DNA of 64,000 nt from Balanoglossus misakiensis (lineage: Eukaryota > Animalia > Hemichordata). Location: the NCBI GenBank assembly GCA_040954595.2, contig CM082588.2, positions 3,060,513 to 3,124,512 on the forward strand, in the 5' to 3' direction. Below the pieces are notes generated by a model. That model was not told the origin of the DNA. It was given only the letters and a program-made list of their open reading frames with translations, and searched no databases. Shown piece after piece: positions 27,720-63,396 of the stretch (position 1 is its first letter; each line of letters starts with the position of its first letter). The position numbers and the translations under genes were made by a program.

Positions 27720-30032
27720 ATGCAAAGGTAAGCACCATGGAAAGTGTAATATATGTGCACAAGTCAAACCGGTCATAGATCATATATTCATCCAAGGCAT
27801 CTTGCATTCATGACATGGTCACACAGGATCTCAATGTATAACTAAAGTTCCTCTGTTCCTCAATATTTAGGTTGTTCATCCGTTTAATCTGTATTGGCTG
27901 TGTTCTCACCGTGTTGGGTTACACACTACAGAAGAAGGCAGGGGTGAACATTTTCCACTATAAGGCGACAATGCACGAACCAGTCATGAAATATGGCAGT
28001 GATGAGCAGCTTAATAACTCACACCAGGTAGGCCTAGTAAGCTTTTTTGTACGTAGTCCATTTAGAGTCAATATGCACCTGGAAAGCTATAGACACAGTA
28101 TTAACCCATGGAGGTACATCCAGAAATCATTTTCTTTTTAATTTTTTTCCACACAGGAAGAAGCTAGTACAACAGACAGTAGGACGGCATCTGTGCAGGT
28201 GATGATGAAGAATAAAACAGTGGTAGATAAAAAATATTCACAGGAAAATGTTCAAGAGATCTCAACCAACTCCCCAAGACGGATCCTAACATCAGATCCA
28301 GCACAGGTGAATAACTCCATTTGTAAGAATATTGGTGTGTATCCATTGAAATTGAAGGCAGGCCAAAAACTGGAAGATACGTCAACAAAATTTGTGATCC
28401 CTCTGTACGGACCTCCAGGTGGACCTAACACGAAGTACTCTCCATTCAGATGGACAGTACAATTCGCAATTCAAAATAAACTTGGTCTAGCAATCCATCG
28501 TTTCAAAACTTATCATTCCAATGTAAATGCGGACAATTTTCTAAAGACGTTCAATGAAACCTATGACCTTGACAAACTTCGCCAGCTACTACCAGTGATA
28601 ACGTTGGAGGAATTTCATGATTTGTGCAAGGGGGAAGTTTCTCCCGGGGGACTTCTGTATCTCCCGAAGAAAAAAAGCGACATCAAAAGTCAAACTTGTG
28701 TAAAAGCCAGGACTGTGGTATGTGGAAAATTGACGTGTTCTAGCAAGACCGGACAGTTAGGTCGCAATGAATGGTTCGAGCAAGAGACTGAACCCTACTA
28801 CCTGAAGATGCCGGACATGCCAACGAGTTATGATGATTACCTCAACCATTTGCAAAACTCAAAGTCAAATGAACCACGATGCTTGGCGTATTGTTTTAGT
28901 GATACACAACTTCCATGTAACGATGAAGTATTGGCACTTCTGGATACATACTTGATCCGCGCACCATACATCCGTCAGATGGCCGACCAGGTGTATGAGA
29001 AAATGTGTGATGGGAATTATGCTGTTGTGCACTGGAGGAACACGAGTGCAGAAGGTTGGAAAGTGTAGGTTTGACACAGTCTGTCTTAGAATAGCAAATA
29101 CTGGAAAGAATCCGTTTTCAAGTCTCACTCTGTATGTGCAAAGATATTCAAGAATGGTTATATACACAGTTATTCTAACAGCGTATAAACTGAGTTAGTC
29201 TTCTAGTGCATCACCATGACATTCTTTCCTTGCAGCTGCCAGCCTCCTACTAAAGAACACGAAATACAGTGTAAGAGAAAAATGGATTCATTTCACCACC
29301 TGATTGAAATAACTGAAGACGCTGCACTGGACATAGAGAAAACACTCAAGTCAGAGAAGGTGTCATGTGTTTATCTTGCCAAGCCTCCCTTTGCACAAGT
29401 ATGTAGTATTGTTATTTCTTCTGTGTTGTGTGAGATTGTTACTTTGACTGAGATTAATATTGTTTTCATTTCACAAGGTCAAATACTGCCATGACCTGCA
29501 GGTGAATACTTGCTTGTCTCAAATGAAGGATGCAAAATTATGGCATTAAACCTTTGAATAGTGTTCAATAAACGAAAGGACATCTTGTGTACATTGTATT
29601 TCCCTGCCTTACCATTCCTCATCTTTGCCTTGCAAGATTATCGAGGAACAACTCCGGAAAACAAGCCTGAAGGTGTACACAGTGGAGGACATGCTAAAAG
29701 TGATTCCAGATTTGCAAAAATACCATGACGACAATTACGTCATCTCACTGGTTGAACAAGAATTGGGTGAAAGTATGTGGCTTCACATTTAAAGTCAGGA
29801 TTTTTATTAGTCCACAAATTATTATCTTCTCCTATTTTGGGTCGTGTATGCCACATTATCATTCTGACCAAAGAACCGTCTCCATTTTCATTTTACAGGA
29901 GCGGAGATATTTTTCAGCTACCGGTCGTCCAGCTGGTCTTTTTACGTGGAATTCACCAGAGACATGCGAGGAAAGAAAACTATAGGCTTATTAGAAAAAT
30001 ATCGCTTTGCAGAAGTTGATTCTGATAAATGA
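27720..30032 (+). CDS. O-fucosyltransferase-family (GT-B, POFUT-like) type II membrane glycosyltransferase, about 501 aa
   Basis: Exons 27720-27727, 27871-28027, 28157-29064, 29236-29398, 29637-29772, 29899-30032 sum to 1506 nt in frame. The N-terminus is a signal-anchor (MQRLFIRLICIGCVLTVLGYTL). O-FucT-type motifs: LYGPPGGPN...LAIHRF, YAVVHWRN, VYLA, and SLVEQELGERAEIFFSYRSSSWS. Confidence 0.72.
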
Positions 30033-31195: not shown

Positions 31196-34100
31196 TCAGA
31201 GATCCAGGGCCACTCTGATCAGAGATGCCATATCAGCTGTGTTGTCATCATCTGGTGAGTACAAGAAACATGATTATGTTCAGAAACACCACAGGCTTGG
31301 TTGCAACTATGCGGTCAGTATATGAATTTATTCAGTAAATGAATAATGTTAATGCTAAAAGTGAAAGCCCACGGAGTGTAGGTTACAGTGTGAAGGGGTC
31401 TTGTAACATTGCTTTTGATTGGTCAATTTCTTTGTTGATACACCAAACACATGAACGCTAACCAATCACACCCGACAATCTTGCCTGAAGACTCACCTGA
31501 ATCATTTGTGGTCATTTCTTTTTCCAGATTCAGTTTCCCATTGGCACACCTCAACATGGCCTCCTCGATTGTATTCTCGCTGATCAATCGTATGACACTG
31601 ACATCCCTGCGGGTGAAACAGAAAGATCGAATTCAGACTTGAATTCAAACATTGCTGATTTCTACAAAACAACAAGCAAGACTACATTACCTGGTTTGTC
31701 CCACTCTGTGACATCTGTCCTCAGCTTGTTTATCGTTGTACGGGTTGAAATCAATGTCGTGGAGGATGACTGTATTGGCCGCGGTCAGGTTGATGCCAAG
31801 ACCACCAGCTCTGGTTGACAGCAGGAACACGAATATGCCATCATCATTGTTGTATTTATCGATCAATTCCAACCTGTAATAGTCAAATAGTTGCACTCAG
31901 TGTAAGGACAAACAGTTGGACTTGTGAATACTTGTACAAAAATGCACTTTTCCCAGACTTGGTCGTCGAGCAATAAGTGAAAACTCTCACCTTTCCTGCA
32001 CAGCAATTCGACCATCAAGACGCAGGAATTTGTACTGTTTGACGTTCATGTAGACTTCAATGATGTCTAGCATCATGACGAACTGACTGAAGAGAAGCAC
32101 CCTGTCGCCCTGGAAACAGACAACAAAACAATAATTGTAACTAAGCAACACACAGGTTGGCAGCAGTACTCATACGAACTCTGATATTGATTACAAAGTG
32201 ACTGTAATCTCAAAGTATGTTAATCTTTACTCACGTTTTCCTTTAGTGTAGGCAGTAATTTATCCAGCATTTGGAATTTCCCCGAGTTAAGAATGATGTC
32301 ATCAGAGAGACGGTTGCCACGGATGCGGCTGAAGTTATTGCACAGTTGATGTAATTCAAAATCTGACATCACACTCATGTCTTCAAAGATCAGCTTGGGA
32401 TCAGCATCATGGTGAGTCGGTTCCTAATTATTCAGAAAAAAAGGTTATTTTGCAGTAGTAGTCATCATCAGTCAATGATTTAGTGTAAAAACCAAGTTAC
32501 CCAGCTACAAGCTTATGTCAAAGCATGGAACTTCCCTCTATTACCTTCAACATCAGCTTGGACATCTTCCTCAGCTTACTGTCAGTGTACTGGTGTCTGT
32601 GCAGCAGGGCATGGTTGGCCATTTTCCTCAACTGCATCATGGCCCCGGACAGCTGGCCAGAGTCTCTAGCTCCTTTCAGGGATTGGGATAACGTGAGTAT
32701 GAGGTTGTTGTACTGCTCGCGCTGGCTGGTTGATAAGGGACACTTCTCGATGCGCTCACGCTTCTTGGGAAGTTGCTTCAAGACCTGTGAAGGCAAGACA
32801 AGTCACATCATTTCTACCTCTGTGACACAGATTGGTGGTTCAGCCTTGATGTGTTCGGTGGTCAGTTGGACTGGTCTACTTTGAAGACAGGGGGGTGACA
32901 GCCCCTAAACCATTGTTGGCTTTCTCTCTCAAGAAGCAGTAAATATTGAAAGAGATGTTCAGAAAACAAGAAAAGTCTTCAAGAAGAATGAAAATACTCT
33001 AGACTCTTCTACTTACGTCTTCCTTCACTCTTCGCAACACAAATGGCTGCATGATATGTTTAGCATGGGCTATTCTGTCACGTAGAAAATTACTCTGGTC
33101 TGTATCATTGGAAGCTACTTTCTGCAATCAAGAACAGCACATGAACATTAGAAGTTAAGGAGACATTGCAGAGATAGGGAGTTCAGCTAGGCTAATTTCG
33201 ACATGTGCTAGAGTTTCACCCCCAGTTCCATCTACAGAGGTCCAAGTAAACAATAGATTTGGGCCAACGTGAGTTAACAGTGTGTACACTTACCGACGAA
33301 AACATTCGCTTGAGATGGTCTGTGCTGCCACCAACAATGAAGATGTGAGGCATGACAAACGCCAGCAGAGACATCAACTCCAGCAGGTTGTTCTGCAATG
33401 GTGTTCCAGTCAGTAATAGCCTCCTCTCCGCCTGTGTGTGAAATTCAGGTTTCAGTGATGGTGTTTTGGAAACACAGTATGAACATAGTATGACAAAACT
33501 TCAATTTAAAAATTCATAATGAAGAAGCAAAAAATAATTACGGAAAGTCCATAGTATATTGAACTGGTCGTTGACAGAATTATGCAACTTAACTTCTTAT
33601 TTTTTTCATGGAGTCAAGAAGAAATGGTATACACATACCCTTATTTTCAGCAATCCCTTGTAACGCTGCGAATTCATATTCTTTAACATGTGCGCCTCAT
33701 CCAAGATGAGATACTTGAAGTTCAGTTTCTTCAACAGGTTTTTGTCCTCTGCCGTGCTGACACAAATGTTGTACCTGTGGACGGGAGAGATCAGTAAATG
33801 GGTTCCACGACTTTCCAGGAGTATTTTGATTTGACGAGGACTTCCCTAAGTGGTTTCACATTCCGGGATTATTCATGACAGACCCACAATGGGGGAACTG
33901 TCAAAGTGTCATACTTACGTTGACACCATGATGTTGAACTGTACACTGCCGGCAAAGATGCGAGCTCGTAACATCTTCCTGTCGTCTTGAGATCCAAAAT
34001 ACAGCAAGACTTCAAGGTCGGGGCACCAGTTGTTTATTTCACGTATCCAGTTGTCTAAACATGAGATGGACAAATTATTACTAACAGCGATAGAATGGCA

Positions 34101-37100
34101 GTAGTCTTAAAATTTACTTAGGCATATACTATTGTGCATAATCCTTCAACATCAGCCAATTTCATGTCAAACTTACCCATGGTAGATGAAGGCACCACAA
34201 TGAGAAAGGGTCCGGTAATTCCTATCTCCAGTAAATGAGCCAGAAATGCTATGGCTTGAATTGTCTTTCCCAGACCCTGTCATATAAAAAACCAAGTGAC
34301 CAAAAATTAATATATGACTACATGTATATGACACAAATAATTGATTGGAAAAATTGGCTTAAAAAAAATTATCATGGATGGTTTCCCACTCACCATTTCA
34401 TCAGCAAGAATACCGTTGACTTTTTTTCTGTACAGCAAAACCAACCAGTTGAGACCTATCATCTGGTAAGGTTTTAAAGAAAAGCTGCCAAGAGAAGTAA
34501 ACACAGGAGAATGACTGTTGTGTGTTTAATACCTGGATATTTTGACCTGTAAATAACAGGAACTGCCAAGCTGGAGAACTTGATTCTGCCAGAAATCACC
34601 GTACACTAGGATTTCCGAAAACTCATGATTCCAAGCATGTACAATTCTTCTTACCTTGGATTTAACAGTTTAGGCTGTTCCACCAGTTGGCCTTCAGTGT
34701 CGGAGTCATTACTCCCACCCTCCAGAATCCTGGAGACGATCGTCTGCAGAGCTTCGGATATTTTGCTGCATTTGTTCATCAGTCTCTTCAGCACCTCCCG
34801 CTCCTGCAGAATGGTTTTGCTGTCCCAGATGATGTCGAAGCTCAAACCTTTGATGCTGTCAAATTTATCACACTGTAATTGAACGAAAAAAGAAAAAGTC
34901 ATCAGAGATGGCACAGTCCCTGTAGGTCAAATTGTATTCTGAAGTTTTCAGGGAATAATCAAAAGAGCCGTTAGACGCACTCACCAGGTTATTCCAGGAA
35001 GTGAACGGCCTCCCGCCTCGAATCCTCTGAGATTTCATTTTCGAACACCCGGGTATGGTCTGCAGCTCCTCGATGGTGGCATCGTTGAAAAAGGACAGAA
35101 TCACCTCCTGGCTATCAGCACTGAGTTCCTCCTCATAACTATCATCACTGTCATCATCATCCACGTCGTTCTCACTGTTGCTCCGGTTACCAGCACTATC
35201 CTCCTCCTCCTTCTCCTCTGCCGCATCATCTCCCTTGTTACTAGCCTGCTCTGCCGAGTGTTCACTCTCTCTGTCATCGTTACTTTCTACCTCTAGAACC
35301 CTCATATTCCCTTTGCTACTAGCATTACAATCTTTCTTGGATGTGTCCTCGTCCACCTGATCATCAACATCATCGTCTGCGACTTCAACATCACTACTGT
35401 CTTCATCCTCTTCCTCGTCACTAGAGATGGCTAATGGAATTTTTCTCAACTGAACGTCTTTGGTTTTGGAATGTGATTTCTGTTTATTATTGCTCGCCTT
35501 GGATTGTTTCTGCATTGGGCTCGCACTTTTACTGCCCTTTTTGGATTTGTCCACTTTGAAAGTCTCTGCACTGTCCTGCTGTGGTTGTTCGTCATCCATG
35601 ATGATTATTGGACTGGCTCTTTCCTCTTCTGCAAATAAACAATGGAAGGAATGACCAACCTTGCAATCAGAAAGAATTAAAAATAAAAAAGAATGGCTGA
35701 TTCAATCAAGATCAATGAAATGCCATGACCTACCCTCATCAGCAGAACTGTCCTCATCTAAGATCTTAAGCACCCTGGTAGCCCTGTCAACTGACCAGTC
35801 ATGATTCTCCAATATTCGCTCCAAGTCCTGGTAGGGTGGGCAAGAAAAAAAAGCAGGTTTGTAGTGAATCGATCAGCAGTATGGGATAACCATGATATTA
35901 TTCTAAAGGACTTTCACCCCAAAATGTGGATGTGCAATGTGCTTTTCCAGCAATCATGATGGATTTTCAAAACTGCAGATTGACACTCGGAACTTACATT
36001 GGTGGAATGCTTTGGGAATGAAGCCTTGAGTTGATCAACCAATGAGTCTCTGTTCTGCGAGTCAATGAGAGTCGCGTCAGAGTCCGTTGTGAAGCTGTCT
36101 TGTAACTCTACCGGTTGTTTGCGTGTTCTCTTCTTGGCGGGCTTGATGGACCCACTGCTGTACTCGGTGTTCTCAAACGGTTCGGGTGATACTGATCTCC
36201 TACGTTTCTGACGGTCTGAGAGAAAAGGGTCATGAGATATGGTAGATCGCGATGGTATAAACAAGTACTGCAATATTAACAAACAACATCAGATATGCCA
36301 TAGGGAGACATGCATAAATACTCACTATTTCTTTTGGGCGGATTAAAGATCATCTCCATAGCTTCATCTAAACTACTTGTCTTATTCGCAACATCTTCCA
36401 ACTCTTCCTTAGTACGATCCGGAAATATATCCTGAAGCTGGGCCAGAATCTGCTCCTTCTCTTCCTTGGCATCATTTGTTGCAGCAGTCAAGCCCTCGTT
36501 GTTGGAGCCGTAACCGGACGTTGAACTGCATGGCCTACTGGGTGGCTTTTCTACATCCGTGTCAGACGAGTCGCCCTCACTGCACGATGAATGGATCTGA
36601 AATGTTTGCTTGCTGGATGGCAAAAAAAGGGCAAGAAATGTACATGAATCCCCACATGAAACAAAAGCTTTATAAATATTCTCAAAGTATTGTGACTTCA
36701 TTAGACATCTTTACACAACCAATAAGTTCCACCCTGATTCTCAAACTGCTTACCTTTTATGTATCTTGCTTTTAATGACAGACTTCACTGTGGCTTGTTT
36801 CAGAACACTAGACAAAGTGGCCTTTTCATCTTCGTCTTCATCTCCAGAACTAAAGACATACTTCACTGTCTTTTTCACTCCCCTGCCAGCTGCTTTTCTG
36901 AACACTGGACTTGGACGTTCTGAAGGCGGAGTCTCGGGAATGGTGTCAATGTCTGTGTATGTGAAGTACCACATCGAATGTTCATATGAATAACAATTAT
37001 GATTATCATGTACATGTCATCATTTCAACAGGGAAATAATACGTCACGCGTTATATCCTCTTTATATTTTGACAAAATCTTTGAAATATTCTTTGTTTAA

Positions 37101-37986: not shown

Positions 37987-44123
<6,137 letters not shown>

Positions 44124-44515: not shown

Positions 44516-47500
44516 TCACTCCATCGAATTCATCATAGAAAACAGAAGTAGCAATGAGACGAATATTGTCCAGGCACTTTGCAAATTGACTGAAGTCGAC
44601 GACACGGTTGGTGATTCAAAAACTTGCGGAATGAATTTACTATGGAGGCCGAAGGGCATGATCTCCGGTGAAACAACTCGACCTAGCTCGGTGAAAGTTG
44701 CAGCATCTAACACGACGACCATTCCTATATATAAAATAAATGAAAGTGTATGTTAATAGCTAAGATTAGATATGCAGACAGACACACACAGGCAGGTAGG
44801 CCAGACCGACGGATGGATGGGTGGATTAATTACCCTTTTCTGTGTTGGTATCCATTACGTTCGCGATTACAACGCCGTCATCCTCTGCGTTGGAATCGGG
44901 ACTGGCCACAAAGATTGGTTCGCCGGGCAGGAGGCCGTCAAATGGTCCCCAGTATACAGATTCTCCTGTGTCCACGTTTAACTGTAATATTGATGCACAA
45001 AGCATTCTTAGTCTCTCTGAGTTGTAACTACCAAATGGCAGTTACGATCTCATTCTTCGAGACCGCATAAGTACATTTTGCATTGGCCAACTTAGAGCTT
45101 GGCTATGTATACTGAGAAAATATTCTGTCATGAAAACTTTAATGAAAAGCAATTGTGACGAAATCTTGCCCGTTTTCTTTTGGTGAAAACTTTGATAAAA
45201 CTCTCCAGGGTCTATGGTAAACCGCTCAAGAAGAACGTGTCTACAAGATCTAGCCGTCTTACCTTAATCAGCGAATTAGCGAGAGGATCAAAACCAACCA
45301 TGTATGCGTATGTGTACGGTCTGCCATTGTATGCTTCATAGTTCACTGTAGAAAACTCCAACAGTTCGTGATCACGCGTTGCAAAGAGATCGGTTCTGTC
45401 TTCTAAGGTCCAATCAGACATGTCCACAACAAATCTCTCCACTCTGGTTGTCATACCACGCTGTAACGAACGTTTGTTAAAGTTAAGAATAATGGATATC
45501 AAAGGGTTACTGGATTCAGTTTCATTTCAACATGCAAAATTGCATTAGATTTACTGTCAATTTTTGGTGGTTGAATGCCTTTTTGATGACATTCTAATCA
45601 AGTTTAGCATTATAAAGAACGAACAGCTACTCTTCACTTTTCTAATATTTACCCTTGCATAACTTAAGTGGAAAAAATCTGTCCCACATTACTCACCGGC
45701 CCGGCCATCAATTCATCAATGTAGAAATGCCAATAGACATCACCATGATAAGTTAACATGTCGAGATACATTTTCCCATCTTTTTCATAAGAATTCAACT
45801 GGAAAATGAGAAATGAGTGAAGTTGTATCTAAGTGAGGTAATAATAATCATACATGTTGAAATGCGCAATTCTAAATATCTTGTTCAAATATGTTGAAAA
45901 AGAAATATCAAAGGCATTTTACCTGATGAGTGACAAAGAGACCATCTGGGGTCGAGAACTCCCCGACAACCTCATTGGTTGATCTGCTGATGATGACGAA
46001 ACGAGTGGGCGTGGTCTCGGAAAAGTCAAAGTTTCGCGTGAAAAATGGCTCTTCGGGACCAGCTGGGTCAGACACTGAAAGGCAATGAGGATTTACTGTG
46101 AAGTACTTTCCTACGATAACTTCAGAGGGCAAGGATTCAGTTTCAATTTCCCCAGACTTCAATTAAAGGAATATCCCAGTTCATGCTTACTCCACTGAAA
46201 AATCCAAATTTCTTTCGTTTTTATTTCTAATACAAATGCTTAACAACTTTGGACAAAGTTACTTCTACACACAAAAAAAACACGTAACAACATTCAGCAC
46301 CTACTTACCGAAAAGGCTGCATATGTCAAGCATATAAGTTGAGATAGGCAGAATGAAATAGTTTTCTGTCATAGAAAATGAGTGCATATAACCCCCTCTG
46401 GAATCCATCTCAGGGTATGAACCATTCGGCAAGCATTGGAAAAGATCAAAAGGCCCAGCTTCGTGGAACGAGGCTATCGCGATTCGCTCTTCGTCGACAA
46501 TTTTATAGACAACACGGCTGTGGGTAAAATGAACGGAAGTTGTGGCCAGGTAATCATTATTTCTATGGCGTTATTGAAAACTTGAAACGAATGAACTTTA
46601 CAGACATTAGACGTGTTATTTCAATGCCGATAGAGCAGTCACTACTCTTTTGATAAAAATGCTAACATTCTAGAAAATGGCACAGGTAGATTCGGTTTAT
46701 GGATGAACCATGACAAGATTTTAATCACTTACGTGGCATTTATACTATTGATGTCGCTGACGTCATACATTACTGTTGATCCGTAGACAACGACACCATC
46801 CTCGTCCATATGCTCATGCGCAGGATTGTTCACACTAACCATAAAGGATGGCAGGCCCAGATTGTCATCTTTGAAGGGGTAATAACCTTTAGACTCGAGT
46901 GTGTCTAGATCAAACCAAATTCCTGCAACCAAAGAAAAACGTGAATCACCTTCATACAAATTCGAATACTTCACTTATGACTTCTATGGCAGTGAAAAGA
47001 TCCTGCACATTTGGTTCTAGCATCATCCTATTCTCCTTGCTCTTGTAGCCTTGCTTTCTTGAAGCACAATCTTGATATTCTTGGCACTTACCAGCGATGC
47101 CTTCGGACATGGCTTCCACGTTGTCCCCGATCTTCCAGAAGGCGACGTTTGGGTTCTCCAGTGGATGGTCGTGAAACGCTGACCATTTGTCTTGTTGAGC
47201 TTGGTGCTGAGGAAAGAAAGTTGTCAGTTCTCAAAGACCTTTGATTATGTATACCCTGACTGCCTGTCCTCCTGTCTCTGTGTGTGTTGTATAGTCCAGT
47301 CTATTTGTCCGCAACTGTCGAACTGCAGAACTAGCTCCTCAGATGCATATACATGAAGCAGTTTCAATCTGCAGTTCCAGTTTCACCCCCCTCCCCGATG
47401 ACAAAACGTAAAATCAGATAGGCTCGCCCGCTATGTGACACAAGATCACAACCATTGCATGTGAATTATGCGCATACTAAAATTAATCATTAAAACTACA

Positions 47501-48513
47501 TCTAAATGTACTTGATGCTTTATAGCATTAATACAGGTCAGTGACATTTGACTGAGGCGAAACACTTGCTAATACTCACCACTGGGCTATAGGTTGTGCC
47601 CCAGGCCACTTTGCTTCTGTCCATATCACGGTTGTAGTAATCAAAAACCTTGTACGACTGGGTAAGGTAATACCTGAAAAAATACACCAATCAAGGAATT
47701 AACAAATTCCCATCAAAATCGGAAAAGATTTAGCATGTGTATATATAATTATTATTCATTCATTTATTTTTAATTTCTTAATTCAGTAACGATACTATGT
47801 ACAAATTATTTGCGTTATTACCTGGTGGAATACATTGCATAGCCGCTGTTGAATTTAAATGAGGCGACTGCACCCACCCCGTCGAATGTATGGGTCATTT
47901 TCCCGCCTTCTTCGGTGTTGCTCTGGTTACCGAATGAGCCAGCGGTCTGGTGTATGAAGTATCCTGAGGAAAGGTTGAGAATGAGTTGATGAACGACTTT
48001 GAAATTCGGCCATTAATAGTCCGCACATTATGTAAACGAGCCTAGTACGTTCAGCATAGTTACTCTGTCGTACACAGTACCAGTGCACAGTTTCTCATAT
48101 CAAAAGGTAATACAAGTCAGAAATAAATCATATTTGTCATTAATATTGACAAAAGGATGGGGCAACGGCAACAGTTTTTGTTGCTATCAACCGACGGAAT
48201 TGTTTGACCATATCTTACTTTGGAGTCCATGCCTGGTAAAGCCTTGCTGTCACAAATGATATCCAGCTATCACGGCTATTTGCACAAAGATTGTGTCACA
48301 AACCCGCGTGCCCAAAACAACGTTCTAAAGGCAGGCTCGTCTTCGCCACTCACCAGAAATCCACTCGGGAACGTTGCCCTTGACCTCGGCTTCTGTATAA
48401 GGATGCTCGCTGCTGATCGTGCCGAAGTACGTGTCCATTATGTTCTCTGGAATATCCCAACTGGTCGCCATGGTGATAACCGCACACAATAGAATTAGCT
48501 TTGAGTGATACAT
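44516..48513 (-). CDS. Carotenoid-cleavage oxygenase family protein (BCO/RPE65/NinaB superfamily), about 572 aa, with predicted signal peptide and GPI-type tail
   Basis: Eleven phase-compatible exons: 48354-48513, 47822-47963, 47580-47673, 47092-47206, 46733-46922, 46309-46517, 45923-46074, 45697-45798, 45263-45460, 44834-44981, 44516-44724 (1719 nt). Family motifs: VKGNVPEWISG, HTFDG, NPNV...AMSE, and EPIFVASPDSNAEDDG. All four Fe-His motifs are present: PAHEH, YMHSFSMTENY, FVTHQLNSYE, PFGLHSKF. Confidence 0.93.
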
Positions 48514-52681: not shown

Positions 52682-53275
52682 ATGGGGTGTGCCGAATCAA
52701 TTGCCATAGCAACAGATGTCTACAAAAACAAGAAGAATGCGAGTAATTGGAAATTGTCCAAGGCGCCCAAATTCTCACAGGAAGAAGTTCACGAGCTCAG
52801 GAGGACGTGGCCAAAACTGGCCTGTGATGCCACGGGAAACGGGGGACAGGTATTCCTCCACATTTTCTCGACGAATCACTCCATAAAGAATCTATTCCCG
52901 TTCCGCTACGTGCCGAACGACATCCTCTCCAAGAACGAATCGTTTAAGATGCACTCCCGGCGGTTTATGGCTGCTGTCGGCGCCTGTGTGGAGAACCTGG
53001 AATCCCTGGACGGCGAGGTATCGGCCTTGTTCATAGAGTTGGGAAAGAAACACGTCAAATTCGACGGCTTCAATGTGGAGTACTTCACCAGCTACATCGC
53101 CAGCATGCAGTTTGTTTGGGACCTGGAACTGACGGGGCATCATTACACGAACCAGACCAGAGAACTGTGGACAAGTATATTTCAGTTTGTCGTGAACCGG
53201 ATGAAAGAAGGATACGCCATTGCCCAGGAAGAACAGTCGGCAGAAGAAAATAATTCGGAAATCGCAAAAATTTGA
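52682..53275 (+). CDS. Globin X-like / neuroglobin-like globin with N-terminal acylation motif, 197 aa, single coding exon
   Basis: The first in-frame ATG is at 52682 (the track's 52565 start is GTG). The sequence begins MGCAES. Globin landmarks: A-helix LRRTW, CD1 Phe in NLFPF, distal His in FKMHSRRF, proximal His in LGKKHV, H-helix ELWTSIF. Confidence 0.9.
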   Translation: MGCAESIAIATDVYKNKKNASNWKLSKAPKFSQEEVHELRRTWPKLACDATGNGGQVFLHIFSTNHSIKNLFPFRYVPNDILSKNESFKMHSRRFMAAVGACVENLESLDGEVSALFIELGKKHVKFDGFNVEYFTSYIASMQFVWDLELTGHHYTNQTRELWTSIFQFVVNRMKEGYAIAQEEQSAEENNSEIAKI

Positions 53276-57370: not shown

Positions 57371-58630
57371 CTAGACAGCCTCGTACACGTTTTCAGATGA
57401 CGATTGGCTTTCATGATGTATCCCTTCGTATTGGGAATCTGACTTCTCTGCAGTTAAACCAGCGTAGTGTTCGGATCCTTCTCTCTTGCCGTCTGCTGTG
57501 TCCATCTCGACATTCTCGTACGTCTCTTGGTCCCCTTTGTCCACGATTGCCTGGTCTCCGCTTTTCACTTCTTTTTTCTTGCCTCTTTCCACCCTGCTGA
57601 CACTTTCATCCTGTTGTTTTGTATTTCTGCGCCGAGAATCGAAACACTTCCTTAACTTACCGGAACGGACGAGGAACACCAAGGCAACAACCGCCAGACA
57701 CAACAGAGTAGCAAAAACACCTCCGAAAAAGGCCCCGGCGATAGCTCGGCTGGGGAGATCCTTTTTGTCGCATTTGGACATGATTTGAGAATTCTCGGCC
57801 GTATACGGCGATAATGTGGTCGTGGATGCAGTGGTCATCTTTACAATTGCAGTTCCTTTCTGTTGATTTGTAGAACTCTTAGTCGCAAGCGAAGTCGATG
57901 GCGTGTCCAAGTTAATAACCCCTCGGGCGATGCTGGTGCCATGCTCGTTGGTAGCTTCGCATTTAACAAACAGTTCGTTGCGATCGGTCGGCACTGTTTG
58001 GATCATAAGAGCATCTGGTTGTGGAATCACCACTCTGAAGGCCCCGTTCACGGCGTGTTCGATTTTTGTGTCGTTTATGTACCAATCAAAGTGGGTTAGT
58101 AAGGAAGGTCCGGTGTTAACATGGCAAACACATACCGTAGTCAACAGTTTCGATTCTTCAAAAGTGTACGCTTTCAGGGTAGCCGTTAATGGTCCGGTAT
58201 TGCAAGTGGCATCAGGAGGAATAACGACGGAGAGATTGTAGCTTGAAATCTCTGAAAAGTCCAGGTCACACGTGTACTCTCCTTCGTCTTGCACGGTAAC
58301 ATTTGTAATTATCAAGGTCGCACTTTCGCAGATGAAATCTGAATAATACTTGTCTGGTGAGTATATAAATAAAGTGTTACGGGAGCAATCGTAATACCCA
58401 GCTCGCGGTCCAGCAAAACACGAACATAGCTCTACTCCGGATCTTTTCCATGATATTATGAAATACTCGTCGGGAGGATTGTACCCGTCAAAGGAACAGA
58501 GAAGTGCGGCGTTCTCACCTTCAACCACTCTCACGGTCTCACGTTCAGCTGCGACAACCGACAGGTATGCTGCAGTCAGCAAGAACGCCAAAAGTCCCAT
58601 ACAAAGGGGCACGTGAATGAACTTGGCCAT
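57371..58630 (-). CDS. Type I membrane immunoglobulin-superfamily receptor (V-type plus C-type Ig domains, S/T stalk, TM, tyrosine-motif tail), 419 aa, single coding exon
   Basis: Signal peptide MAKFIHVPLCMGLLAFLLTAAYLSVVAA. Domain 1 has EGENAALLC...ISWKR...ATLIITNVTVQDEGEYTC. Domain 2 has C...FDWYINDT...VKCEATNEHG. These are followed by a Thr/Ser-rich stalk, TM AIAGAFFGGVFATLLCLAVVALVFLV, and cytoplasmic YENV, YAGL, YEGI and YEAV. Confidence 0.9.
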   Translation of the reverse strand: MAKFIHVPLCMGLLAFLLTAAYLSVVAAERETVRVVEGENAALLCSFDGYNPPDEYFIISWKRSGVELCSCFAGPRAGYYDCSRNTLFIYSPDKYYSDFICESATLIITNVTVQDEGEYTCDLDFSEISSYNLSVVIPPDATCNTGPLTATLKAYTFEESKLLTTVCVCHVNTGPSLLTHFDWYINDTKIEHAVNGAFRVVIPQPDALMIQTVPTDRNELFVKCEATNEHGTSIARGVINLDTPSTSLATKSSTNQQKGTAIVKMTTASTTTLSPYTAENSQIMSKCDKKDLPSRAIAGAFFGGVFATLLCLAVVALVFLVRSGKLRKCFDSRRRNTKQQDESVSRVERGKKKEVKSGDQAIVDKGDQETYENVEMDTADGKREGSEHYAGLTAEKSDSQYEGIHHESQSSSENVYEAV

Positions 58631-58817
58631 GGAGACGAGCGAGTAATAGTCTTAGTCTCTTTAGGCTTCACAGTGGAGAATGAATGGAAAGAAATGTTTC
58701 TATTTCCTTGATCCGGGTATTCTTAATCGTGCGCTGTCTCTATTTTTATAAGAGATGTAGACCTCGTTTTGACACTCTGCAGCGTTAAAAGGGGGGCAGG
58801 GAATTGAACCAGACCGT

Positions 58818-59114: not shown

Positions 59115-60182
59115 TTAATCCAGCTTGATCTTAGAATTTCTGCTTACAAGCAGTACGAGCAGACCAACCGCACATCCAATGGGAAGCAAAATATTTGCCG
59201 TCTCTCCGAGGTGAATTAGGGTCCACGCCGCGCCGACCATTTCCACCAACAAAATCACTGCACTGGCTTGCTGCGCCCTGATTGGGCCCCACCAGAGCAG
59301 TACGCCCGCTATCAACTGTGACATGCCGATGACAAACTGATAGTCGACAGGGTCCGGTCGGTAACCAATGGATGACAGGGGAAAGACCTTAGCATACTGA
59401 ACGAAATGGCTATTCTGAAAATCAAAATGAAAATATAGTAAGCGTCTTTCACAGAACAGATTTAAATTGTGGCTTTATGGGAATGGAACTCTGACAAGCG
59501 TCTGTAAACTTCCGACATTCTTGGGTGATCAACAGGTGGCCAGACCCGTCTTGTCGTTCGGACCACGATCACTTCTAGTCACACACAGTGACCGTTTTCG
59601 GACACACCCTGTTGTGTGGTTGTCAAGTATTCTTGAGTGTTGACATCATATTTTCGTGCACAGTTACAGCGTCATTGAAAGCAAAAGTAACTGGGGGTGG
59701 CGAGATGGCGGACACGCGAACGAGTGGTGGCAGTATCATAGTACGCGTAGAGGCGGAGTATATAACAAGAATTCGCCCTGTTTTTTTGAACTTATACAAA
59801 CATGGGCGTGCACGCCCAGTGTACTTTTCGTAGCAAACGCGTATTTCAGATTGTAAATGGAGATTTCAAAAGAGGATAGCCAGACATCATTGTGCGAGCG
59901 CGACAGTAATGACTTTCAACCAGAAAAACCTTCAGTAAAACCACCATTATTGGCCTGGTCAATTCTATAGCCTATAGGCCTATATACACTAAATTTATCT
60001 GAGGTGGGACTGTGCTGCGCCTGGTTGAAATTTGACCCCAATAAAATACTAGCTGCATATTACTACAGTTGTAATCAACCTACCAGTGTATTGTGTATTT
60101 GACCTTGAGGTAGCAAATGAATCGTCCCTGAAATACAGTAGAAGACGCCAAATCCGTACAGCAGGTAACCTAGAGTATTCAT
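59115..60182 (-). CDS. TMEM35B-like (NACHO/DoxX family) membrane protein, divergent copy 1, 132 aa
   Basis: Exon 1 60084-60182 (MNTLGYLLYGFGVFYCISGTIHLLPQGQIHNTL). Exon 2 59115-59414 (NSHFVQYAKVFPLSSIGYRPDPVDYQFVIGMSQLIAG...KIKLD). The 99-nt first exon and phase-0 intron match the other two copies. Confidence 0.85.
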
Positions 60183-60739
60183 CGTTCAGTTGACGTCGGA
60201 AATTTCTTCCCACAAAACGGTATTGACTCAGGGAGCGTTCTGCGTGTCAGGGCAGTGGTCACTCAGTGGTAGAATGGTCGTGAAAGAAAGCTAATCAAGC
60301 AAATCACCTTCACCGAGGCAACGTTTGAGTGGCATTACGTCACAAGTTTGTCTGCAAGTAGGTGCAAACATGAACGAGGTACCTATCAGCTCGGGGTCGG
60401 ACTTTCCAAGTTGACCAAGAAATTGCACAAAATAAAAATATTGAAATCAAAGCGAAAAGTTACAGCTAATGGGGATTTAAATGTGTTGAATCATGAACTT
60501 TTAAGCTTTTTATTATGGAAAAGAATTTTTCAGTGCCGTTTCAGTGAACATGTGGTTTTATTCTATACCATTGTTGGCTGTAAAGATAACGGAAAACGAG
60601 AGGTCTACTGTAAATTGGCGTTGGCGGCGTACAATATGTGCCAGCTGGCTGAGTGTGCAGGAGCAACACAAAGTGCCTTCATTTGAGCTTTGTCTGACAA
60701 GGGAGGAGGGAAACACGCCACTGTGACTGTAAATAGACG

Positions 60740-61768
60740 ATGGGTACATTTAAGTATGCGGTGATATTGCTAGGCATCCTTTTCGCGGCATCTGGAGTGG
60801 CGAAGTTGATACCGGCGGGTTCTGTTCACGAACACATGGTAGGTTTTCCCCGTACGTTTCGCTCTCACTCACTGCCTGGATCCAGTGGGCGTGGTTCACA
60901 GTGGCAGTGGTTTTCCATCCATGTGGTGAGCAATCCCACTGGAAACTAGCGCAGTCGCTTGTGGGCTCTAAGTCTTCTCTGTATGTACGCGCTAATATGC
61001 ATTCTAAACCGATGAGCTAGCTGAGCCTAGGTGTAGCTACTACAATAGTAGTCCATTTCAGGAAATGGACGCGCAGAATGGACATGATTGGAGCCTGGAA
61101 TCGACAAGCGACCTTGGCGCGTGTACATTTCTTTGTTATCAGCCAAATTCCAAATACATGAAACACATTACATAAGTCCTCGAATGCACCCTTCTTTCAC
61201 AGTTACAGACAGCATAGTAGCATTCTGCATATCGACCTCCAGCCCTGCGTACAGGTCTGTGTGTTCCCGGTGTGGACGTAGCTAACTTCCATGTGTACAT
61301 GTATTCCATTATGCCACCAGGGATGAATTACTTTGGAAGACAATGATGTGTGAATTTCCGGACCCCAGACAATAGAGTTGCTTGTTACTTTGTTTCTAAA
61401 AAATAAAAAAAGCAGAGCAGTATAATGGACTATAGTTAAGTCGCCGAATCTGTCTTCTATTTCAGACCAAAGAATTTGTACGGTATGCCTCTGTGTTTCC
61501 ACTGCTCAGCTATGGCTACAAACCAGAACCCGCTCAGTTCCAGTTTGTCATCGGCATCGTCGAGGCGGCCGGGGGGCTGCTGCTGCTGATCGGCTCGCTG
61601 CGACTCAAGAAGATGGTCGCCCCGATGCTGATGGTGATCATGGCCGGCGCCGTGTGGACGCTGTACCACCTCCACGAACCACCACCAATGATAGCGTTCC
61701 CGGCAGTGTGTGGGTTGGGACTCTTTATACTGTTGTTGCAAGGAGAAGAGAAGCCAAAATTGGAGTGA
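60740..61768 (+). CDS. TMEM35B: TMEM35B-like (NACHO/DoxX family) membrane protein, copy 2, 133 aa
   Basis: Exon 1 60740-60838 (MGTFKYAVILLGILFAASGVAKL...). Exon 2 61466-61768 (TKEFVRYASVFPLLSYGYKPEPAQFQFVIGIVEAAGGLLLLIG...IMAGAVWTL...KPKLE). This matches the TMEM35B pattern GxxKL...VFPL..GYxPxP...GxxE...MxGAxxTL. Confidence 0.88.
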
Positions 61769-61973
61769 CGGATGCACTAGCCTCTCCGTGTTGGAAGTAC
61801 GGTTGGCAATGTGGACTCTGGAATGATGAAAGCTTTATATATATAAGTACATTTTTACTAATCAGGGTTGTATTTTGAACTACATGTACTATTACATGGG
61901 AAATATGCAGTGTGTTTGTTCACATTTGGAGAAATAAATAATTGTTAATCTTGGTATACAAAGTTTGGTTGTA

Positions 61974-62152
61974 CAGTCAAACCTGTGTTAGTGACCACCT
62001 CTATATAGTGACCACCTCTATATAGTGGCCACTTAGTTACAGTCCCTGTACAATTTACACGTGTATAAATTAACCTGTCTATAAAGACCACCTGTCTATA
62101 AAGGCCAGTTTGGTAAAGTCCCTTGACTGGCCACTATAGACAGGTTTGACTG
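61974..62152. mobile_element. MITE, Tc1/mariner/pogo-like non-autonomous element, 179 bp
   Basis: Terminal inverted repeats CAGTCAAACCTGT ... ACAGGTTTGACTG, flanked on both sides by TA (target-site duplication). Internal 17-bp tandem units GTGACCACCTCTATATA and ACCTGTCTATAAAG repeats. Confidence 0.88.
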
Positions 62153-62373
62153 TATATGAATTTTCTGGATGTTTTGGTCCTGGAGTTGACCCACATGGTC
62201 TTATTTGAAATTTTTGTGGATTATGTTAGAAATTGATTGGTATGAGAACAAGTATAGCCAACGTGATTAAAACTACCAGTGTCATAACTATTCTGAACAA
62301 ATGGGAGCAGTGCCCTTGGCGCTATATTTTGGTATTGGTCTCGGGACAAGAAAGAACCACGGCATTGGTTACG

Positions 62374-63396
62374 ATGGGTGCATTCAAGTATGCAGTGGTA
62401 TTGCTGGGCGTCATTTTCACGGCATCCGGAGTGGCAAAGTTGATACCTGCGGGTTCTGTTTACGAACACATGGTAAGTTTTCCGGCCTGGCCGCCTGCAT
62501 TGTTTTGAATGCTTTTTTTTTGCTCCAATTTACATGCAGGTGGCTGTCGTCCAGGAATCTGGGTAGGGATGTGTGTGTATGTGGGGGGGGGGTGCATGTT
62601 AAGTGGAACTGCCTCGTAGTGCAGAGGATAATCAATTTCCCACAAGAATATTTTGTACTTCGAAGTATCCTCACACATTTTACTTGCCATTTGGACAGAA
62701 TTCTCAATCAGTAATGGCAAGAACTTGGCAGACAGGCCATGTAGCAGACAGTGATGATATATGCAAAATGCAAAGCAAAGGTTTGTTCACAAGCCGACAT
62801 TCAACTCTTTAGGCGCTTTTTATACGCTGGTTGTATTGTTGTACGTCTTTTCATTGATTCAACCCATGCATAAAGTTTCATTGATCTTTGCCAAGGCCAT
62901 GTACGTCGCCCTTTCAGAGAGGTTCACTTTGCTTTAAATAAACAGCTTGGCTGGCACAGAAGCTTAACTTGCTGAGAAAGTAAATTTGACAGTTGATTAT
63001 GGGGATGACGAATAAACTTGAAGAAATTTCTCAAGCACATTTTCAAAGCAATGAACAATATAAATATCATTCATACGAGTGTATCATCTCTTTCAGACCA
63101 AGGAATTTGTACGCTTCTCGTCTGTGTTTCCACTTGTCAGTCTTGGCTTCAAACCAGACCCTGCCCAGTACCAGTTCGTTATCGGAGTCATTAACACCGT
63201 TTGCGGGCTGCTCCTTCTGTTTGGTTCGCCGAGACTCCAGAAGCTGGCCGCCTCGGTGCTGTTGGTCATCATGGCCGGAGCCGTGTGGACACTGTACCAT
63301 CTCCACCTACCTCCACAGAAAGTGGCGTTCCCGGCAGTGTGTGGATTTGGACTCCTGATATTCCTTCTGCGGGGAGAGAAGCCTAAAACTGAGTGA
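62374..63396 (+). CDS. TMEM35B: TMEM35B-like (NACHO/DoxX family) membrane protein, copy 3, 132 aa
   Basis: Exon 1 62374-62472 (MGAFKYAVVLLGVIFTASGVAKL...; 12 of 99 nt differ from copy 2). Exon 2 63097-63396 (TKEFVRFSSVFPLVSLGFKPDPAQYQFVIG...KPKTE). Confidence 0.88.

What the first reader, a model, noticed from the sequence alone, without database searches (positions are those of the whole stretch)
44516..48513. A carotenoid-cleavage/RPE65-family oxygenase built as a secreted, probably GPI-anchored cell-surface enzyme
Seen in sequence: the spliced protein starts with a short hydrophobic leader (MYHSKLILLCAVITMATS|WDIPEN). It keeps all four iron-ligand His motifs and EPIFV..P....EDDG, and carries sequons NQS, NAT and NGS. 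Instead of ending just after the last His motif, it continues FIPQVFESPTVSSTSVNLQSAWTIFVSLLLLFSMMNSME: a Ser/Thr spacer followed by a terminal hydrophobic stretch with no basic cytosolic tail. Established knowledge: characterised animal members (BCO1, BCO2, RPE65, NinaB) are cytosolic, mitochondrial or on the cytosolic face of the ER, and end near the GLHG motif. Inference: this is an intact Fe-dioxygenase working in the extracellular or lumenal space, for example on dietary carotenoids, apocarotenoids or stilbene-like alkenes at a gut or epidermal surface. I know of no characterised ecto-enzyme in this family.
Basis: partly seen in the sequence, partly recalled or inferred. Interest (0 to 1): 0.88.

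Follow-up and report, generated by a model that had tools for sequence, protein, structure and literature searches.

The report
Likely GPI-anchored carotenoid-cleaving enzyme
This intact acorn-worm-type gene encodes a carotenoid-cleavage-family enzyme with a secretion-type leader and a hydrophobic tail that likely tethers it to the outside of the cell by a lipid (GPI) anchor; secreted relatives are already known, but a surface-anchored form was not found in the papers searched.

Summary
An 11-exon minus-strand gene gives a 572-aa RPE65-family protein with a leader, four iron His, three sequons and a Ser/Thr spacer plus hydrophobic tail. Contigs of one run are spliced at introns 6-10 and cover the stop. 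The nearest relatives are acorn-worm proteins, 58-75% identical, with the same termini.

The secreted part is not new. BCOL proteins were described with signal peptides in 2017, and lancelet BCOLg is secreted, glycosylated and cleaves beta-carotene (PMC5643517, PMC13734108). The 2017 'Saccoglossus BCOLa' is a 56%-identical relative.

What looks undescribed is the tail and the branch. A home-made GPI rule passes 14 of 31 branch members, including annelid and jellyfish proteins, and 0 of 118 outside. The branch (bootstrap 100) mostly keeps Glu at all three second-shell sites, has its own cysteine pair, lacks BCOLg's Asp swaps and disulfide, and includes Amoeba.

GPI attachment, tissue and substrate are inferred; no GPI predictor or assay was run. 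New variant of a known kind.

The parts
48460..48513 (-). Predicted signal peptide, residues 1-18; likely cleavage after S18
   Evidence: Most hydrophobic 11-residue window of the protein, KD 2.9 at residue 6. Same leader type in five hemichordate homologues. In-frame stop 5 codons upstream. No SignalP run.
48354..48513 (-). Exon 1 (coding part)
   Evidence: aligns to P0001; no spliced-contig cover
47822..47963 (-). Exon 2: FDG motif, sequon N66
   Evidence: Pfam RPE65 E 0.009
47580..47673 (-). Exon 3: loop where canonical animal members carry PDPCK; motif absent
47092..47206 (-). Exon 4: second-shell E167
   Evidence: the equivalent residue of P0001 aligns to RPE65 E148
46733..46922 (-). Exon 5: iron ligand H206, sequon N232
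46309..46517 (-). Exon 6: iron ligand H279, C262 and C300 (branch-specific pair, predicted disulfide), sequon N265
   Evidence: Both Cys in 36 of 37 branch members with both columns, 0 of 124 outside; intron 6 joint in X3
45923..46074 (-). Exon 7: iron ligand H353
   Evidence: spliced in X3
45697..45798 (-). Exon 8
   Evidence: spliced in X3
45263..45460 (-). Exon 9: short blade-IV loop, second-shell E423
44834..44981 (-). Exon 10: EPIFV (E475) and EDDG
   Evidence: Pfam RPE65 36 bits; spliced in X3
44516..44724 (-). Exon 11: iron ligand H531, tail and stop
   Evidence: Intron 10 joint and contig over the stop in X3
44594..44602 (-). Best candidate GPI omega site S545-S546-T547 (S546 and S548 also fit)
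   Evidence: Home-made rule; published pattern
44531..44578 (-). C-terminal uncharged hydrophobic stretch, residues 553-568, followed by 4 residues with no Lys/Arg
   Evidence: kept in the second allele

Best explanation
The gene encodes a four-histidine iron dioxygenase of the carotenoid-cleavage family that is likely secreted, likely GPI-anchored on the outer cell surface, and would cleave dietary carotenoids or apocarotenoids there. SHOWN: gene structure, iron ligands H206/H279/H353/H531, second-shell E167/E423/E475, both termini, splicing into the tail exon, and conservation of the tail's pattern though not its sequence. PREDICTED: a seven-bladed propeller (modelled for the orthologue P0001). 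INFERRED steps: (1) the leader takes the chain into the ER and is cut after S18; (2) glycans are added at up to three sites and C262-C300 form a disulfide; (3) GPI transamidase cuts near S545 and swaps the last 27 residues for GPI; (4) the enzyme sits on an exposed surface such as the gut lining and splits an alkene of algal or sediment carotenoids with O2, releasing retinal or other apocarotenals next to the cell. Odds by step: secretory pathway about 0.95; GPI rather than another use of the tail about 0.75; carotenoid-type substrate about 0.8.
For: Gene and splicing. Tail fits the published GPI pattern: small omega residue, small omega+2, polar spacer, 15-20 hydrophobic residues (PMC10491789); here S545, T547, then 16 uncharged residues and 4 non-basic ones. 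Five hemichordate homologues keep the pattern with only 4-10 identical residues over 28-32 aligned tail positions, against 61-78% identity in the core. The rule passes 14 of 31 branch members, among them Capitella and two jellyfish, and 0 of 118 outside; passing members lie in six places of the tree. The second allele has no indel in exons 10-11, while intron 10 has 8 indel rows; its tail has 3 silent changes plus V538A and S570L. The mature chain has just two Cys, conserved in 36 of 37 branch members. Fold of P0001: pLDDT 79, Z 39.8 to archaeal CCD 6VCG, propeller ending near residue 537, then a low-confidence linker and a terminal helix. Secreted BCOLg cleaves beta-carotene to retinal and is transcribed in gut.
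Against: No SignalP, NetGPI, PredGPI or DeepTMHMM could be run; my rule is home-made and was written after seeing these tails. The 0 of 118 control is weak, because only 2 of those proteins have a tail of 25 residues or more. 17 of 31 branch members fail the rule, and the Saccoglossus orthologue P0184 lacks the tail though it sits inside the tailed hemichordate group. Six of the 14 passes are the window protein and five close relatives. Several homologue tails reach a 19-residue KD above 2 or end in Lys/Arg, which also fits a transmembrane anchor. I found no assay for any member of this branch, and BCOLg is distant (65 bits to P0001, below RPE65 at 84), so its substrate need not carry over. 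No tissue data. The fold was run on P0001, not on the window's own protein.
Confidence: 0.6

Rival explanations
1. The tail is not exchanged for GPI but stays as a short C-terminal transmembrane anchor, so the enzyme faces the ER or Golgi lumen, or the cell exterior, as a type I membrane protein.
For: Best 19-residue KD is above 2.0 in several homologues, and some tails end in Lys/Arg, e.g. P0004. AlphaFold models the P0001 tail as a 20-residue helix.
Against: The window protein has 16 uncharged residues with best 19-window KD 1.59 and no basic residue after them. P0001, P0011, P0057 and P0186 end on the hydrophobic stretch with nothing after it. All 18 hydrophobic tails have a small-residue omega candidate at GPI spacing, though that criterion is loose.
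Confidence: 0.14
2. It is a surface or lumenal dioxygenase, but its substrate is not a carotenoid; it cleaves stilbene-like, phenolic or other alkenes from food or sediment.
For: The branch is long and separate (0.91 substitutions per site, bootstrap 100), and I found no assay for any member. It scores better against archaeal CCD than against any animal enzyme.
Against: Stilbene dioxygenases rank below carotenoid and retinoid enzymes by sequence (44-72 bits against 153-266) and by fold (Z 31-33 against 35-40).
Confidence: 0.14
3. The GPI or tail is transient: the enzyme is shed and works as a soluble digestive enzyme like BCOLg, so the anchor is a sorting device only.
For: Many branch members have a leader but no hydrophobic tail (P0013, P0043, P0045, P0184). 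BCOLg is proposed to work in the gut lumen.
Against: The tail pattern is kept in hemichordate, annelid and jellyfish members and in both alleles here.
Confidence: 0.1
4. The termini are artefacts of the gene model and the real protein is an ordinary cytosolic oxygenase.
For: Exons 1-4 have next to no spliced-contig cover, and X3 is not on record as RNA.
Against: The tail is in the same exon and frame as the last iron His. X3 is spliced into that exon and covers the stop. Five RefSeq models from two other genera have both termini.
Confidence: 0.02

Closest known systems
'Saccoglossus kowalevskii BCOLa' of PMC5643517 (current RefSeq XP_077867579.1 = P0184)
   Same: 56% identical; same hemichordate group, bootstrap 100; leader, four His, three second-shell Glu, the cysteine pair, no PDPCK.
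   Different: Its annotated C-terminus is polar and basic and fails the GPI rule. No assay of it appears in the parts of the paper I read.
Lancelet BCOLg (PDB 9PLV; PMC13734108, PMC5643517)
   Same: Secretory leader, N-glycan sites, four-His iron site, no PDPCK, short blade-IV loop.
   Different: BCOLg is soluble and ends 6 residues after the last His motif. It has Asp at two second-shell sites and a C422-C449 disulfide; the window protein has three Glu and a different Cys pair. It scores 65 bits to P0001, below RPE65, NinaB and archaeal CCD.
Canonical animal BCO1/BCO2/RPE65/NinaB
   Same: Pfam RPE65 domain, four His plus three Glu, seven-bladed propeller.
   Different: They are intracellular and carry PDPCK and the long blade-IV loop. 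The window protein has neither and falls outside their clade.
Nitrosotalea devanaterra CCD (PDB 6VCF/6VCG)
   Same: Best solved match by sequence (266 bits) and by fold (Z 39.8, rmsd 2.5 A, 442 aligned).
   Different: Archaeal (recalled), 472 aa, 25-27% identical, ends at the last strand with no tail.

Membership tests
Carotenoid cleavage dioxygenase superfamily (PF03055) | Pfam RPE65 domain | tested here: met
   5 of 11 exons hit singly, exon 10 above cut-off; orthologue P0001 239 bits over profile 6-468
Carotenoid cleavage dioxygenase superfamily (PF03055) | Four iron-binding His and three second-shell acids | tested here: met
   H206/H279/H353/H531 and E167/E423/E475
Carotenoid cleavage dioxygenase superfamily (PF03055) | Seven-bladed propeller fold | tested here: met
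   On orthologue P0001: pTM 0.81; Z 39.8 to 6VCG, 36.2 to RPE65
Carotenoid cleavage dioxygenase superfamily (PF03055) | Oxidative alkene cleavage | not testable with these tools
   Needs an enzyme assay
BCOL, broad sense (2017 clade) | Groups with sequences the authors named BCOL | tested here: met
   Groups with P0184, whose sequence matches their Saccoglossus BCOLa apart from the last residues; bootstrap 100
BCOL, broad sense (2017 clade) | No PDPC(K) motif | tested here: met
   0 of 38 branch members contain PDPC
BCOL, broad sense (2017 clade) | N-terminal signal peptide | tested here: met
   By hydropathy and homologues only; a crude rule also flags 24 of 124 outside proteins; no SignalP
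BCOL, broad sense (2017 clade) | Monophyly of this branch with the BCOLg-type proteins | tested here: inconclusive
   No BCOLg-type sequence was identified among those in my trees. The paper's own support is 44% ML, 66% MP, 98% ME, 99% NJ. The branch profile scores 9PLV at 153 bits, below RPE65 182 and archaeal CCD 266.
BCOLg-type BCOL (lancelet, mollusc, annelid) | Asp in place of Glu at two second-shell sites | tested here: not met
   Window protein E/E/E. Branch: E at site 1 in 32 of 35, at site 2 in 28 of 34. In the paper's alignment, 17 of 17 BCOLg-type sequences whose site 1 I read have Asp.
BCOLg-type BCOL (lancelet, mollusc, annelid) | Disulfide equivalent to C422-C449 | tested here: not met
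   The window protein has Cys only at 10, 262 and 300
Canonical BCO1/BCO2/RPE65/NinaB | PDPCK motif and long blade-IV 'metazoan' loop | tested here: not met
   Alignment blocks; separate clade
GPI-anchored proteins | Small omega site, polar spacer, terminal 15-20 hydrophobic residues, no cytosolic domain | tested here: met
   Home-made rule and hydropathy against the pattern in PMC10491789
GPI-anchored proteins | Positive call by a trained predictor (NetGPI, PredGPI) | not testable with these tools
   No such tool here
GPI-anchored proteins | Covalent GPI, PI-PLC release | not testable with these tools
   Needs experiment

The most novel reading that the evidence does not exclude
This branch is a second, ancient lineage of exported carotenoid-cleavage enzymes that entered the secretory pathway independently of the BCOLg type. 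It spans an amoeba, jellyfish, nematodes, an annelid, a bivalve and acorn worms, has its own disulfide and an unaltered Glu shell, and is the first in the superfamily to work as a GPI-anchored surface enzyme that processes carotenoids before they enter the cell.
Probability: 0.3. Interest if true: 0.7.

Novelty: new variant of a known kind. Interest (0 to 1): 0.45.

Why it matters
Carotenoid cleavage in animals was long taken to be intracellular, and one soluble secreted enzyme has now been characterised. A GPI-anchored form would add a third location: cleavage at the cell surface, ahead of uptake, as with brush-border digestive enzymes. That bears on how marine invertebrates obtain retinoids and handle algal pigments. 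The branch is widespread, has nematode members including Caenorhabditis BCOL, and appears unassayed, so it is directly testable. If it is separate from the BCOLg type, the published view of BCOL as one clade marked by Asp swaps needs revising. The step from 'secreted' to 'anchored' is real but modest, hence the middling score.

Tried and rejected
No genome is held for the window, so paralogues and synteny could not be examined. No RNA holder was listed; X3's lack of cover over exons 1-4 is not used as evidence. The Atlas search on the window's tail did not complete, and the P0001 tail gave no usable hit. The whole-protein Atlas search gave only RPE65-family clusters under 0.9, plus one nematode-rich cluster by structure. 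9PLV was not among the fold-search rows shown; this is inconclusive, as it may be absent from that library. Sequon density does not separate the groups well: 4.1 against 3.15 per 500 aa. My crude signal-peptide rule missed P0003 and flagged 24 of 124 outside proteins, so it is not used as a count. Support labels printed were shifted by re-rooting; those are used. The 2020 review PMC7423639 is not held. Earlier-findings searches gave nothing. Paper searches added nothing. No complex prediction was run, since no binding claim is made. Rejected: a cytosolic BCO1/BCO2 orthologue (no PDPCK, separate clade); a processed pseudogene (the window copy has ten introns); BCOLg-type membership (two defining features not met).

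Full report
1. Observation. Five of 11 exons hit Pfam RPE65 on their own; the domain ends in exon 11 and about 37 residues follow. The model aligns with Ptychodera flava P0001 at 74.8% identity, with no gap at any splice junction. An in-frame stop lies five codons before the ATG. Three public runs of one sample hold the stretch. In X3, contigs skip introns 6-10 at the predicted ends and one covers tail and stop; X1 and X2 show none of these joints. I read X3 as RNA-derived, though it is labelled 'DNA?' by guess. Exons 1-4 are next to uncovered, so the leader rests on homologues.

2. Relatives. The nearest proteins are from acorn worms: three from P. flava, two from Glandiceps talaboti (58-75% identical) and one from Saccoglossus kowalevskii (56%). 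The window is therefore likely from an enteropneust (inference). A profile search returned 150 representatives. Of 184 sequences, 162 went into a FastTree tree; 22 were dropped as fragments, over-long or poorly covered. A branch of 38 separates with support 1.0. An IQ-TREE run on 43 sequences (30 of the branch, 13 outside; 100 iterations) gives bootstrap 100 and length 0.91. Named members include Capitella, Owenia, Mactra, two scyphozoan jellyfish, four nematodes and Amoeba proteus; many others are unnamed metagenome proteins. The branch keeps the four His, mostly Glu at all three second-shell sites, no PDPC in 38 of 38, and a cysteine pair (C262, C300) in 36 of 37 members with both columns against 0 of 124 outside.

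3. The tail. The published GPI pattern is a small omega residue, a small omega+2, an 8-12 residue polar spacer and 15-20 hydrophobic residues (PMC10491789, passages). Here S545-S546-T547 lies 27 residues from the end, followed by a polar stretch, 16 uncharged residues (553-568) and four non-basic ones. A home-made rule passes 14 of 31 branch members that reach the last His, 4 of 8 further fragments or duplicates, 0 of 118 outside proteins and 279 of 10,000 random 60-mers. The outside control is weak because only 2 of 118 have a long tail; within the branch 21 have one and 14 pass. The tail sequence itself is poorly conserved (4-10 identities in 28-32 positions against the five tailed hemichordate homologues), as expected for a physical signal. 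Passing members lie in six places of the tree, mixed with tail-less ones, so ancestral presence with losses and repeated gain cannot be told apart. Against: the Saccoglossus orthologue lacks the tail, and some homologue tails could be transmembrane anchors. The second allele differs at 15 codons in exons 10-11, 11 of them silent, with no indel; the tail changes are V538A and S570L. Differences listed for other exons are a subset (one search showed 40 of 175 rows).

4. Fold. The orthologue P0001 was folded with a 13-row alignment: pLDDT 79, pTM 0.81, an N-terminal helix, a propeller ending near residue 537, a low-confidence linker and a terminal helix. The best solved matches are Nitrosotalea CCD (Z 39.8, rmsd 2.5 A, 442 aligned), NinaB (37.0) and RPE65 (36.2); stilbene dioxygenases score 31-33.

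5. What is known. PMC5643517 (read: parts 1-3 of 5, passages, supplement parts 45-53 of 58) defines BCOL, reports TargetP signal peptides and says some members have C-terminal extensions, without interpreting them in the parts I read. Its alignment holds 'Saccoglossus BCOLa', which matches P0184, grouped with Caenorhabditis BCOL apart from the rest. I saw the C-termini of 21 of its BCOL sequences (all but lancelet BCOLa_1); by eye none ends in a GPI-like signal, though two lancelet models have very long extensions, one with an internal hydrophobic stretch. PMC7221588 (passages) calls BCOL a secreted subfamily. PMC13734108 (preprint; parts 1 and 3-6 of 8; supplement not seen, and its Table S2 on the Asp swaps may bear on this) shows BCOLg secreted, glycosylated, cleaving beta-carotene to retinal and transcribed in lancelet gut. 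Its main text has no hit for GPI, transmembrane or C-terminal. Searches pairing the family with GPI terms found no relevant paper by title and abstract; subscription journals are largely not covered, and a 2020 review was not held.

6. Membership. It is a CCD-superfamily member and a BCOL in the 2017 broad sense. It is not of the BCOLg type: the Asp swaps and the BCOLg disulfide are absent, and the branch profile scores BCOLg at 153 bits, below RPE65 (182), NinaB (190) and archaeal CCD (266). Capitella has both types. Whether the two exported groups share one origin is open: I identified no BCOLg-type sequence in my trees, and the paper's support ranges from 44% (ML) to 99% (NJ). Similarity scores alone do not settle this.

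7. Mechanism. Most likely the protein enters the ER, is glycosylated and disulfide-bonded, exchanges its tail for GPI near S545 and works on the outer face of an epithelium, cleaving carotenoid-type alkenes with Fe(II) and O2. Gene, residues and termini are shown; fold is predicted on the orthologue; GPI attachment, tissue and substrate are inferred. Confidence 0.6. Rivals are a transmembrane tether (0.14), a non-carotenoid substrate (0.14), shedding to a soluble form (0.10) and a gene-model artefact (0.02).

8. Verdict. Real gene, correctly read. Secretion in this family is published; the likely GPI anchor and the distinct, ancient branch that carries it were not found described. New variant of a known kind; interest 0.45.

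Noticed in passing
P0184 (Saccoglossus XP_077867579.1): The published 'BCOLa' sits inside the tailed hemichordate group but ends in a polar, basic tail: a true loss of the anchor or a gene-model error.
   Followed up: partly
P0045 (Amoeba proteus): A non-animal member of the branch with a leader and the cysteine pair but no tail, which suggests the exported branch predates animals; transfer or contamination not excluded.
   Followed up: partly
Outgroup proteins, e.g. P0019, P0063, P0074, P0076: 24 of 124 proteins outside the branch, apparently mostly prokaryotic, have signal-peptide-like N-termini by a crude rule: possibly exported bacterial CCDs.
   Followed up: no
window 45408, 45448, 46796, 46842: Contigs in X1-X3 match short conserved parts and then diverge, pointing to further paralogues in this genome, also present in the spliced run.
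   Followed up: no
window 52682-53275 (+): Single-ORF globin (Pfam Globin), 197 aa from a Met-Gly-Cys start, which resembles the acylation motif of membrane-bound globins (recalled).
   Followed up: partly
window 57371-58651 (-): Single-ORF immunoglobulin-domain protein with a leader, a transmembrane-like stretch and Tyr motifs in the tail.
   Followed up: partly
window 59115-63396: At least three tandem DoxX-like small membrane protein genes.
   Followed up: partly
window about 38650-44123 (+) and 32500-36900 (-): Neighbours: a class I tRNA synthetase gene (isoleucyl-type by recalled motifs) that appears to end about 400 bases from this gene's stop, convergently, and an SNF2-family gene. No functional link seen.
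   Followed up: partly
window 28142-29068 (+): 308-aa open frame without a Pfam hit; looks like the lumenal part of a glycosyltransferase-type protein (recalled, untested).
   Followed up: no
P0042, P0049, P0066 and Caenorhabditis BCOL: Nematode-type members carry long Ser/Thr/Pro-rich C-terminal extensions with no hydrophobic end, a mucin-like alternative to the short tail.
   Followed up: no
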